Shown here: positions 12,001 through 15,000 of the stretch, piece after piece
Position numbering within the stretch: position 1 is the first letter of the stretch
Layout of the letters: each line of letters opens with the position of its first letter
From: Escherichia coli
GTDB taxonomy: Bacteria > Pseudomonadota > Gammaproteobacteria > Enterobacterales > Enterobacteriaceae
Reading direction: 5' to 3' (one strand)
Assembly: GCF_030384885.1 (NCBI RefSeq)
Contig: NZ_CP128613.1
Length of the DNA stretch: 64,000 nt
Position numbers: made by a program

Positions 12001-15000
12001 ACAGCCAAACGGTTATACCGAACCGTTATTACACGCCTGGCGTTTACGTGAAAAAGAAAGTCATTAATAGCATCAAAAAAGCCCCGGCAAGTTTTATTGT
12101 CGGGGCTATGATAGTAACTGCGGTAGTATATTTATCCCGGAAATAACCGGGGCGATTATCAGGGTTTAACAATATTAAATACCCGTAGCGCATCACTAGC
12201 GGGACTAAAACAACATTATGGACATCTTTACGATACTCTGCGCCTGTGTGTGCGGAACAGAAACCCTTACCCGATATACTTGTTATGCCAGAGGTAGCAA
12301 TTGCGTTAGCGGCGTGCTGTTGCTGTAAAGTATAACGCCTATATTTTACAGTTCAGTCCTCTTTTGCTTATTACAAACCTTAAATATATCAAGTATATAA
12401 AGATAATAAGAGACTGAACAATATGGTTACCTGGACCCAAATGTATATGCCGATGGGAGGACTGGGGCTATCCGCTCTGGTCGCCCTGATCCCGATAATA
12501 TTCTTCTTCGTTGCACTCGCGGTATTACGTCTGAAAGGGCATGTTGCTGGAGCAATAACCCTTATATTATCTATCCTGATTGCGATATTCGCCTTTAAAA
12601 TGCCAATTGATATGGCATTTGCTGCTGCGGGCTATGGCTTTATTTATGGATTATGGCCTATTGCGTGGATTATTGTCGCGGCGGTATTCCTGTATAAATT
12701 AACCGTTGCCAGCGGGCAGTTTGATATTATCCGCAGTTCGGTTATCTCCATCACCGATGATCAGCGTTTGCAGGTGTTACTGATTGGTTTCTCCTTTGGC
12801 GCACTGCTGGAAGGAGCGGCTGGCTTTGGCGCGCCGGTGGCGATTACAGGCGCTCTGCTGGTGGGGCTGGGCTTCAAACCGTTATATGCGGCGGGGTTGT
12901 GTCTGATTGCCAACACTGCGCCGGTGGCGTTTGGTGCGTTGGGCGTGCCGATTCTGGTCGCTGGTCAGGTAACGGGAATCGATCCGTTTGATATTGGCGC
13001 AATGGCGGGACGTCAGTTACCGTTCCTGTCGGTTCTTGTGCCATTCTGGCTGGTGGCAATGATGGACGGTTGGAAAGGGGTGAAAGAGACCTGGCCAGCG
13101 GCGCTGGTTGCAGGGGGAAGCTTCGCTGTCACGCAGTTCTTTACCTCTAACTACATTGGTCCGGAACTGCCGGATATTACTTCGGCGCTGGTGAGTATTG
13201 TCTCACTCGCTTTATTCCTTAAAGTCTGGCGGCCGAAAAATACCGAAACGGCAATCAGCATGGGGCAATCCGCAGGTGCGATGGTGGTAAATAAGCCATC
13301 TTCTGGCGGTCCCGTGCCTTCAGAATATAGTCTGGGGCAAATCATTCGTGCATGGTCACCGTTTTTAATCTTAACGGTACTGGTTACCATCTGGACGATG
13401 AAACCATTTAAAGCGTTATTTGCTCCGGGCGGTGCGTTTTATTCGCTGGTGATTAATTTCCAGATCCCTCATTTGCATCAACAAGTGTTGAAAGCGGCAC
13501 CCATTGTCGCCCAGCCAACGCCAATGGATGCGGTGTTTAAATTCGACCCCCTCTCTGCTGGCGGCACCGCTATTTTTATTGCGGCGATTATCTCTATCTT
13601 CATCCTCGGCGTGGGGATCAAGAAAGGTATTGGCGTCTTTGCCGAAACGCTAATTAGCCTGAAGTGGCCGATACTGTCGATTGGCATGGTGCTGGCGTTC
13701 GCCTTCGTCACCAACTATTCCGGTATGTCCACCACGCTGGCGCTGGTACTGGCGGGCACAGGCGTGATGTTCCCGTTCTTCTCACCGTTCCTTGGCTGGT
13801 TGGGTGTATTTCTCACGGGTTCGGATACGTCTTCTAACGCCCTGTTTGGTTCACTGCAATCAACGACGGCGCAGCAAATCAACGTCTCTGACACCCTGCT
13901 GGTGGCAGCAAACACCAGCGGTGGCGTGACCGGCAAGATGATCTCCCCGCAATCTATCGCCGTGGCCTGTGCCGCGACAGGTATGGTGGGTCGAGAATCT
14001 GAACTGTTCCGCTACACCGTGAAGCACAGTCTGATTTTTGCCAGCGTTATCGGCATTATCACCCTGCTGCAGGCGTATGTGTTTACCGGAATGTTAGTCT
14101 CGTAAATCAATAAAGCCGGATGATCGTTAATATCATCCGGCTTCATTCTTTGTTCATTACATTATTCTGTCTTATTAATTTAAAATCATTTCCTGCTTTA
14201 TTATCTATACAGTAATAATGTATTGCATTCAGATAACATACTAAATAATTAAGGGTGTGAGAATATCTGTTTTTTTATCACGCAAAACAAGTCTGTATTA
14301 ATTATGTTCGCTTGATGAGCAAACACCGTTCTATCTGTTGCTTTTGCAATCTAAATCGTTAAAACTATCAACGAATTTATATGGTTACGCTGTGAAAAGT
14401 TGTTGATTTTTTGTTTGTTGAAATTTCGTAAAAATAACCTGGCAGATATCGTATAGGGGATATTCTTATAGATTTCACCTGTTTTTCTATAAATGATGCC
14501 GTTTTCTTAAGAATGGAGGAAGTTATTAGAGAAAATAAAGCATAAAACTATTTTCCCAGTTACAAATTCTTTAATTTTATTTTGTCACTTGCGTTATTAA
14601 TGAATAAGAAATTTAAATATAAAAAATCGCTTTTAGCGGCTATTTTAAGCGCAACCTTATTAACCGGTTGTGATGGCGGTGGTTCAGGATCGTCCTCCGA
14701 TACGCCGTCTGTAGATTCTGGAGCAGGGACTTTGCCGGAAGTGAAACCCGATCCAATACCAACCCCGGAACCGACACCTGAGCCGACGCCGGACCCAGAA
14801 CCTACACCAGACCCGACACCCGATCCAGAGCCGACACCAGAACCGGAGCCAGAACCTGTTCCTACGAAAACGGGGTATCTGACCCTGGGCGGAAGCCAGC
14901 GGGTAACTGGTGCTACCTGTAATGGTGAATCCAGCGACGGCTTTACCTTTACGCCAGGCAATACCGTGAGTTGTGTGGTGGGCAGTACGACCATTGCAAC

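What the first reader, a model, noticed from the sequence alone, without database searches (positions are those of the whole stretch)
14755..14880. Tandem Pro/Thr/Glu-rich linker repeats in the yghJ fragment
Near-perfect nucleotide repeats encode PTPEPTPEPTPDPEPTPDPTPDPEPTPEPEPEP. Such linkers are slippage-prone and may vary in length between strains; on the opposite strand they create a spurious 256-aa Gly/Ser-rich ORF.
Basis: seen in the sequence. Interest (0 to 1): 0.2.

Follow-up and report, generated by a model that had tools for sequence, protein, structure and literature searches.

The report
Proline-rich tether of truncated SslE lipoprotein
The repeat is the already described proline-rich, acidic tether that joins the lipid anchor of the E. 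coli mucinase SslE/YghJ to its body; here it sits in a deletion-truncated dead copy of the gene, so it is an ordinary feature.

Summary
The peptide is there. The DNA is not a near-perfect repeat: TRF gives period 30, 2.7 copies, 80% matches. There are 15 different hexamers among the 20 units, and the longest exact direct repeat is 10 nt.

The gene is sslE/yghJ. Its codons 1-331 are 100% identical to an intact E. coli allele. A 5.8-kb deletion then joins them to the gspC tail, and the downstream T2SS-beta operon is also wrecked. "yghJ fragment" is therefore correct.

The 256-aa antisense ORF exists, but it is open only because of one synonymous G at 14875. Ten of the eleven other strains compared have TAA there, so it is spurious.

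Across about 4,080 complete E. coli genomes, roughly 85% have the same linker length. At least 13.4% are one Pro-Thr unit (6 nt) shorter. Alleles of -12, -13, +6 and +12 nt are rare. Repeat-number variation of the kind slippage produces appears only in a minor lineage whose tract has become a perfect (CCAGAG)n, with n = 3 to 6.

Distant homologues all carry a Pro-rich, acidic tether of 28-66 aa with unrelated sequence, which points to a spacer role. The linker is already described in the literature. Interest is low.

The parts
14600..14671 (+). Lipoprotein signal peptide and lipobox (MNKKFKYKKSLLAAILSATLLTG-C24). Cys24 is the predicted lipidated first residue of the mature protein, followed by Asp25.
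   Evidence: Translation. Residues 1-21 and 23-29 are invariant in 12 aligned alleles; residue 22 is Thr in two of them and Ala in ten. SslE is described as a lipoprotein with a lipobox in PMC8881592.
14672..14746 (+). Gly/Ser-rich flexible segment, aa 25-49 (DGGGSGSSSDTPSVDSGAGTLPEVK).
   Evidence: Translation and 12-allele alignment.
14747..14866 (+). (Pro-X)x20 run, aa 50-89 (PDPIPTPEPTPEPTPDPEPTPDPTPDPEPTPEPEPEPVPT). It has 11 acidic and no basic residues.
   Evidence: The region is called a flexible linker or unstructured ~5 kDa region in PMC8881592 and a 'poly proline-rich domain 44-90' in PMC10637626.
14600..15592 (+). Remnant of sslE/yghJ, codons 1-331 of about 1,519.
   Evidence: 100% identity to E. 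coli 2013C-4282 sslE. The intact homologue carries DUF4092, M60-like_N and Peptidase_M60, all of which lie beyond the deletion point.
15590..15592 (.). Deletion junction. These 3 nt are shared by both flanking alignments (microhomology). 5,846 bp of the intact locus are missing here.
   Evidence: blastn of the window against L012 and the annotation of L012.
15593..15664 (+). 23 unrelated codons (IRRKFLTISSLRLCVRRELSVMQ) and a stop, read from the gspC 3' remnant. They complete the 354-aa fusion ORF.
14560..15330 (-). Antisense 256-aa ORF with a Gly/Ser/Val-rich stretch opposite the linker. It is spurious.
   Evidence: The ORF is listed. The frame is closed by TAA in 10 of the 11 other strains compared, because of a synonymous sense-strand difference at 14875.
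15593..16479 (+). gspC 3' tail and gspD 5' part (98.3% to the intact locus), followed by a second deletion of 1,135 bp inside gspD.
   Evidence: using the annotation.
16471..18989 (+). gspD 3' part, gspE and the gspF 5' part (96.6% to the intact locus). Homology stops at 18989.
19232..20492 (-). IS3-family insertion sequence lying just beyond the truncated gspF.
   Evidence: 100% identical over 1,261 bp to elements annotated 'IS3 family transposase' on E. coli plasmids. ORFs are listed.

Best explanation
The repeat encodes the N-terminal tether of the lipoprotein SslE/YghJ, the AcfD-family M60 mucinase secreted by the E. coli type II secretion system beta.

In an intact gene the mature protein starts at lipidated Cys24. 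It continues with about 25 flexible Gly/Ser-rich residues and then 20 Pro-X dipeptides (X = Thr, Glu or Asp, with one Ile and one Val in the window's allele). The globular, roughly 160-kDa body begins at '...KTGYLTLGG'.

Inferred mechanism: alternating proline plus a high negative charge and no basic residues should give an extended, non-folding, polyproline-II-like rod. Using my estimate of about 0.3 nm per residue, 40 residues span on the order of 10 nm. Such a rod would hold the enzyme away from the membrane and lipopolysaccharide surface. Its threonines may carry the O-linked sugars reported for YghJ.

The repeat exists at the protein level. Mixed synonymous codons keep the DNA only about 80% repetitive, so this allele is not notably unstable.

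In this window the tether is a relic. A 5.8-kb deletion removed everything after codon 331, and the secretion operon is broken by a second deletion and ends beside an IS element. At most, a 354-aa lipoprotein stub could be made.
For: Identity of the gene (shown):
- 100% nucleotide identity to sslE codons 1-331 of E. coli 2013C-4282.
- The locus order is glcB-glcA-sslE-(gsp remnants).
- A full-length solved homologue is in the PDB, 23px ('Putative lipoprotein AcfD homolog'), whose deposited sequence aligns through the linker residues.

Truncation (shown).

Tether anatomy (shown).

Literature:
- PMC8881592 describes a 'flexible linker' and an 'unstructured ~5 kDa region' after the lipobox, and removed it for structural work.
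- PMC10637626 calls aa 44-90 a 'poly proline-rich domain' and reports a glycosylation-dependent antibody response to it.

Spacer role (inferred from conservation of properties without conservation of sequence):
- In 14 homologues at 33-90% identity, the segment between the lipobox Cys and the first conserved domain is 28-60 aa, against 66 aa for the window's own allele.
- It is 17-35% Pro, 12-24% Asp/Glu and 0-11% Lys/Arg.
- The motifs are unrelated, for example IEPPIEIPPDIPP repeats and IPPPPVVDPExPE repeats.

Limited instability (shown):
- 50 of 59 evenly sampled genomes have the same length.
- The -6 nt allele is in at least 548 of 4,081 records.
- The +6 allele is in 8 records, and +12 and -12 in single records.
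Against: - No experiment cited here tests the linker's length or conformation. The extended-rod model and the length estimate are inference from composition and my general knowledge of polyproline-II geometry.
- The BEMAP glycosite map of YghJ lists no peptide between residues 50 and 90. There is no Lys or Arg in that stretch, so trypsin gives no usable peptide. Glycosylation of the linker threonines is therefore not shown directly.
- Whether the truncated ORF in this window is expressed is unknown. A simple sigma-70 consensus scan found no promoter-like site in 14100-15900, which is weak evidence either way.
- The source organism of the window was not identified.
Confidence: 0.85

Rival explanations
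1. The repeat is a hypermutable, contingency-type locus. Frequent strand slippage changes the number of units, or shifts the frame, to vary or switch SslE.
For: - Indels fall on whole 6-nt or 12-nt units.
- A minor lineage shows a graded series (CCAGAG)3, 4, 5 and 6.
- One genome has a 13-nt frameshifting deletion inside the linker.
- One protein cluster has a 26-aa in-frame loss inside the linker.
Against: - The window's allele has no perfect tract longer than 10 nt at period 6.
- About 85% of roughly 4,080 genomes share one length, although most alleles are only 84-87% identical to the window over the compared 1,033 nt.
- The -6 allele is nearly invariant in sequence across 548 records, which fits inheritance rather than recurrent switching.
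- The units are multiples of 3, so slippage would not switch the gene on and off.
Confidence: 0.07
2. The main role of the linker is to be a glycosylated, mucin-like, immunodominant stalk (decoy epitope or protease-resistant stalk) rather than a passive spacer.
For: - Rabbits immunised with glycosylated YghJ strongly enriched Pro-rich motifs from aa 40-90, while those given non-glycosylated protein did not (PMC10637626).
- YghJ carries 54 mapped O-linked sites (PMC8417355).
- The window's linker has 7 Thr flanked by Pro.
Against: - No glycosite has been mapped inside aa 50-90.
- Distant homologues keep Pro and acidic residues but often have little Ser/Thr: 4-12% in 9 of the 14 homologues tabulated. 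Glycosylation is therefore not the conserved property.
- This reading is not exclusive of the spacer role.
Confidence: 0.2
3. The 256-aa Gly/Ser-rich ORF on the minus strand is a real gene, and the repeat serves it.
For: An uninterrupted GTG-started ORF lies at 14560..15330 (-).
Against: - The frame is closed by TAA in 10 of the 11 other strains compared, including one whose first 150 aa are 97% identical.
- It is open only in the window and in the identical 2013C-4282 allele, because of one sense-synonymous base.
- None of the annotated E. coli records inspected lists a CDS there.
Confidence: 0.01

Closest known systems
SslE / YghJ (AcfD-family lipoprotein M60 metalloprotease of E. coli, substrate of T2SS-beta)
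   Same: The first 331 codons are identical to an intact sslE allele. The signal peptide, lipobox, Gly/Ser segment, Pro-X linker and the start of the N-terminal region are the same, and so is the genomic position after glcA.
   Different: The window's copy lacks codons 332-1519, which hold DUF4092, M60-like_N and Peptidase_M60. It also lacks a working secretion operon, so it is a pseudogene remnant.
TonB (Glu-Pro)n-(Lys-Pro)m spacer (own knowledge)
   Same: Alternating X-Pro dipeptides lie between a membrane anchor and a functional domain, and are thought to form an extended, rigid segment.
   Different: TonB's spacer has an acidic half and a basic half and spans the periplasm. The SslE tether is purely acidic with Thr and, in intact systems, sits on a surface-exposed or secreted lipoprotein. 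There is no sequence homology, and none was tested here.
Trypanosome procyclin (PARP) Glu-Pro repeats, Pfam PF05887
   Same: Both are lipid-anchored surface proteins with acidic (Glu/Asp-Pro)n rods. Pfam gives a compositional match to aa 27-88 (E = 6.7e-9, 36 bits).
   Different: The score is far below Pfam's gathering cut-off of 100 bits, so this is resemblance in composition only, not membership.
Pro-Thr linkers ('PT boxes') of bacterial cellulases and other carbohydrate-active enzymes (own knowledge)
   Same: These are low-complexity Pro/Thr interdomain linkers, often O-glycosylated, whose length and sequence vary between homologues while their composition is kept.
   Different: They join a catalytic domain to a binding domain rather than a lipid anchor to a body. 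Glycosylation of the SslE linker is not demonstrated.

Membership tests
SslE/YghJ (AcfD-family lipoprotein metalloprotease) | N-terminal lipoprotein signal peptide with a lipobox Cys | tested here: met
   MNKKFKYKKSLLAAILSATLLTGC. All but one of the first 24 residues are invariant across 12 alleles; residue 22 is Thr or Ala.
SslE/YghJ (AcfD-family lipoprotein metalloprotease) | Sequence homology to sslE | tested here: met
   100% nucleotide identity over window 14000-15592 to E. coli 2013C-4282, which includes the annotated sslE (codons 1-331). Identity to other alleles is 84-97%.
SslE/YghJ (AcfD-family lipoprotein metalloprotease) | DUF4092, M60-like_N and Peptidase_M60 catalytic domains | tested here: not met
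   These domains are present in the intact homologue at aa 417-585, 1080-1164 and 1172-1464. They are absent from the window's 354-aa ORF because of the 5,846-bp deletion. The window's copy is a fragment, not a functional member.
SslE/YghJ (AcfD-family lipoprotein metalloprotease) | Linkage to an intact T2SS-beta operon (pppA, gspS2, gspC-M) | tested here: not met
   pppA, gspS2 and most of gspC are deleted. gspD has an internal 1,135-bp deletion. gspF homology stops at 18989, next to an IS3-family element.
Slippage-prone tandem repeat (microsatellite-like or contingency locus) | Several head-to-tail copies of a (near-)identical nucleotide unit | tested here: not met
   There are 15 different hexamers in 20 units. 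The longest perfect period-6 tract is 10 nt. TRF gives 80% matches.
Slippage-prone tandem repeat (microsatellite-like or contingency locus) | Copy number varies between closely related strains | tested here: inconclusive
   Length classes of -13, -12, -6, 0, +6 and +12 nt exist, but about 85% of genomes share one class. The graded series is confined to the (CCAGAG)n lineage. No phylogeny was built, so the number of independent events is unknown.
Pro-rich extended spacers (TonB-like X-Pro repeats, procyclin EP repeats) | Alternating Pro-X run placed between a membrane anchor and a folded domain | tested here: met
   The (Pro-X)20 run lies between Cys24 and the conserved 'TGYLTLGG' domain start. 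The same placement is seen in 14 distant homologues.
Pro-rich extended spacers (TonB-like X-Pro repeats, procyclin EP repeats) | Extended polyproline-II conformation with measurable spacing function | not testable with these tools
   Only composition is available. PMC8881592 treats the region as disordered and removed it from the construct.
Trypan_PARP (Pfam PF05887) | Score at or above Pfam's gathering threshold | tested here: not met
   36.3 bits against a cut-off of 100.

The most novel reading that the evidence does not exclude
In a minority sslE lineage the end of the tether has been homogenised into a perfect hexanucleotide microsatellite, (CCAGAG)3-6. SslE tether length could then be tuned by slippage, for example to match O-antigen or capsule thickness, while the mainstream alleles, including the window's, are kept stable by mixed synonymous codons. 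The evidence shows the allelic series. It does not show that the variation is adaptive or frequent.
Probability: 0.1. Interest if true: 0.3.

Novelty: already known. Interest (0 to 1): 0.08.

Why it matters
It matters little for this window, where the linker is a leftover in a dead gene.

More generally, SslE/YghJ is a vaccine candidate, and aa 40-90 has been reported as a region where the antibody response depends on glycosylation. For antigen design it is mildly useful to know three things:
- the tether has one dominant length in E. coli;
- one common variant is 2 aa shorter, in at least 13% of sslE-bearing genomes;
- a small lineage has a variable (Pro-Glu)n tract.

The comparison also shows that a protein-level repeat written with mixed codons is much more stable than the same repeat written with one codon pair.

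Tried and rejected
- **Exact look-up of the 354-aa fusion product:** it is not in the 15-billion-protein collection. The source organism could not be named this way, and no complete E. coli genome in RefSeq has the same deletion junction.
- **Word-indexed protein search with aa 1-331:** it returned mostly truncated or fused fragments and unrelated Pro-rich proteins, not full-length SslE clusters. It was useful for rare linker variants but not for allele frequencies.
- **Net length of the first 1,033 nt as a proxy for linker length:** this was misleading. The +3 and +6 classes are mostly due to single-codon insertions outside the linker. I replaced it with linker-only queries.
- **Pfam on the fragment:** only a sub-threshold compositional hit to Trypan_PARP.
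- **Sigma-70 promoter scan of 14100-15900:** no hit, which is uninformative.
- **Antisense ORF as a gene:** rejected.
- **Release of SslE by self-cleavage in its mucin-like linker:** considered and set aside. Antibodies raised against protein purified from supernatant recognise aa 40-90, so the secreted form appears to keep the linker.
- **IS600:** I first recalled the nearby IS as IS600 from memory. The database only supports 'IS3 family', so I do not name it.

Full report
**1. What is in the sequence**

An ORF on the + strand starts at ATG 14600, with an in-frame TTG at 14582, and its stop codon ends at 15664. Its product has three N-terminal parts:
- a lipoprotein signal peptide and lipobox, MNKKFKYKKSLLAAILSATLLTG-C24;
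- a Gly/Ser-rich stretch, aa 25-49;
- twenty consecutive Pro-X dipeptides, aa 50-89, nt 14747-14866: PDPIPTPEPTPEPTPDPEPTPDPTPDPEPTPEPEPEPVPT.

Proline makes up 4.3% of the rest of the intact protein, so 20 alternating prolines cannot arise by chance; the expectation is about 6e-25.

The DNA is not a near-perfect repeat:
- Tandem Repeats Finder reports period 30, 2.7 copies, 80% matches, score 101, plus weaker period-12 and period-18 rows.
- Self-identity at shifts of 6 to 36 nt is 48-69%.
- The 20 hexamer units comprise 15 different sequences, because all four proline codons and several Thr, Glu and Asp codons are mixed.
- The longest exact direct repeat is 10 nt.

**2. The gene and its state**

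Window 14000-15592 is 100% identical to E. coli 2013C-4282 through the glcA 3' end, the intergenic region and codons 1-331 of the annotated sslE ('lipoprotein metalloprotease SslE', 1,519 aa).

At 15590-15592, a 3-nt overlap, the alignment jumps 5,846 bp. The rest of sslE, pppA, gspS2 and most of gspC are missing. The reading frame continues for 23 unrelated codons into the gspC tail and then stops.

Further downstream:
- gspD carries a second, 1,135-bp internal deletion.
- gspE is present.
- gspF homology ends at 18989.
- An IS3-family element lies at 19232-20492.

The intact protein carries DUF4092, M60-like_N and Peptidase_M60, all beyond the deletion. The window's ORF yields only a sub-threshold compositional match to the procyclin Glu-Pro repeat family. 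'yghJ fragment' is therefore correct: the gene and its secretion system are dead here.

A full-length homologue from K-12 has solved structures (PDB 23px, 23py, 23pz).

**3. The antisense ORF**

The 256-aa ORF at 14560..15330 (-) exists. In 10 of the 11 other strains compared, its frame is closed by TAA just upstream of the Gly/Ser-rich part, leaving about 104 codons. One of these strains is 97% identical to the window at the protein level over the first 150 aa.

The difference is one base, 14875. The window and its identical allele have G (sense GGG, Gly92); the others have T (sense GGT, also Gly).

**4. Does repeat number vary between strains?**

*Alignment of the window and 18 other strains.* The Pro-X run takes these lengths:

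| Length (aa) | Strains |
|---|---|
| 40 | window and nine strains |
| 38 | five strains; four of them (MIN14, WP3-S18, B-DidR, FAH) have lost one CCAACA (Pro-Thr) unit |
| 36 | A39, an intact gene that has lost CCTGAG-CCAACG |
| 42 | ABWA45 |
| 44 | EC09 |

In addition, NRZ14408 has a 13-nt deletion that frameshifts the gene and is annotated as such.

*Population counts.* I used a 221-nt linker-only query against 5,426 complete E. coli genomes.
- 4,084 records contain the region.
- In an evenly spaced sample of 59 full-length matches, 50 have the window's length, 8 are 6 nt shorter and 1 is 13 nt shorter.
- With the 215-nt '-6' allele as query, 548 of 4,081 records are at least 99% identical. 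This is impossible for any allele of a different length, because a 6-nt gap alone gives 97.3% or less. The -6 allele is therefore present in at least 13.4%.
- With the +6 allele as query, 8 records have that length and one has +12.

*A caveat on an earlier proxy.* Net length differences of +3 and +6 nt across the first 1,033 nt are mostly single-codon insertions outside the linker.

*A rare variant.* The protein collection holds one cluster (9 members) with a 26-aa in-frame loss inside the linker (P0012).

**5. Where the variation concentrates**

A minor sslE lineage has replaced the mixed-codon end of the linker by a perfect hexamer tract:

| Strain | Tract |
|---|---|
| STEC388 | (CCAGAG)3 |
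| CAVP776 and about 20 other records | (CCAGAG)4 |
| ABWA45 and 7 other records | (CCAGAG)5 |
| EC09 | (CCAGAG)6 |

The perfect period-6 tract is 20-38 nt in this lineage, against 10-11 nt in the window and the mainstream alleles.

Four length states in a few dozen genomes with a perfect tract, against essentially three states in about 4,000 genomes with an imperfect one, is what slippage predicts. It also shows that the window's allele is of the stable kind. No phylogeny was built, so the number of independent events is not known.

**6. What the linker does in intact genes**

This section is inference, supported by comparison.

A full scan of 1.84 billion representative proteins with aa 88-600 of intact SslE found homologues down to about 30% identity. 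I examined 14 of them that have an N-terminus: 13 from that scan and one Photobacterium protein from the earlier word-indexed search.

In all 14, the segment between the lipobox Cys and the first conserved domain is 28-60 aa, 17-35% Pro, 12-24% Asp/Glu and almost free of Lys/Arg. The window's own allele has the longest tether, at 66 aa.

The sequences themselves are unrelated. Examples are 'EPPIEIPPDIPPPIEIPPDIPPP', 'IPPPPVVDPETPEIIPPPVVDPEEPEV' and 'PEIPPGPEIPEPEVP'. Composition and placement are conserved while sequence is not. That is the signature of a physical spacer: an extended, acidic, non-folding tether between the lipid anchor and the large body.

The literature already describes the region:
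- a 'flexible linker' and an 'unstructured ~5 kDa region', which was removed for structural work (PMC8881592);
- a 'poly proline-rich domain' at aa 44-90, whose recognition by antibodies depends on glycosylation of the antigen (PMC10637626).

Direct glycosite mapping found 54 sites, but no peptide covers aa 50-90 (PMC8417355). Ser/Thr content of the tether is low in many distant homologues. Glycosylation may therefore be an E. coli-specific addition rather than the conserved role.

**7. Comparison with known things, and verdict**

The feature is the known SslE linker. The window's copy is a fragment that fails the catalytic-domain and secretion-operon criteria for a functional family member.

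It works like other X-Pro spacers (TonB, procyclin, Pro-Thr linkers of glycoside hydrolases; own knowledge), with only compositional resemblance. The Pfam score is 36 bits against a cut-off of 100.

Independent decay of the sslE and T2SS-beta locus is also already documented for laboratory strains (PMC3707838). It is visible here as many different sslE fusions in the protein collection and as a different deletion pattern in O177:H21-type strains.

The finding is real but ordinary. The 'near-perfect nucleotide repeat' and 'slippage-prone' parts should be corrected.

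Noticed in passing
L019, L014, L011, L017 (E. coli STEC388, CAVP776, ABWA45, EC09); equivalent to window about 14825-14860: A minor sslE lineage has a perfect (CCAGAG)n tract at the end of the linker, with n = 3, 4, 5 and 6 in different strains. 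Many of these genes are annotated as truncated pseudogenes.
   Followed up: partly
P0002, P0008, P0011, P0018, P0025, P0029; L020 4201-6514: The protein collection and E. coli genomes hold many different SslE N-terminal fragments fused to GspK, GspM, prepilin peptidase or the GlcA C-terminus. O177:H21-type strains have yet another deletion pattern. The sslE and T2SS-beta locus has evidently decayed independently many times.
   Followed up: partly
window 16471-16479 and 18989-19232: There is a second 1,135-bp deletion inside gspD. About 240 nt lie between the end of gspF homology (18989) and the IS3-family element (19232-20492), and I did not identify them.
   Followed up: no
L013 (E. coli NRZ14408), equivalent to window about 14763-14775: A 13-nt deletion inside the linker frameshifts sslE. 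It looks like a 12-nt unit loss plus one base in a C run, and could be a real pseudogene or an assembly error.
   Followed up: partly
P0012: An in-frame loss of 26 aa leaves only PDPTPNPEPEPVPT as the linker (cluster of 9 members). The same protein also has a frameshifted C-terminus.
   Followed up: no
window 14875: A single synonymous base (GGG versus GGT, Gly92) decides whether the antisense frame is open for about 276 or about 104 codons. This is a reminder that long antisense ORFs opposite Pro-rich coding repeats can hinge on one site.
   Followed up: yes
window 14400-16600: No complete E. coli genome in RefSeq shares this exact deletion junction, although the sslE allele itself is 100% identical to strain 2013C-4282. 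The source of the window (an unsampled E. coli lineage or Shigella) was not determined.
   Followed up: partly
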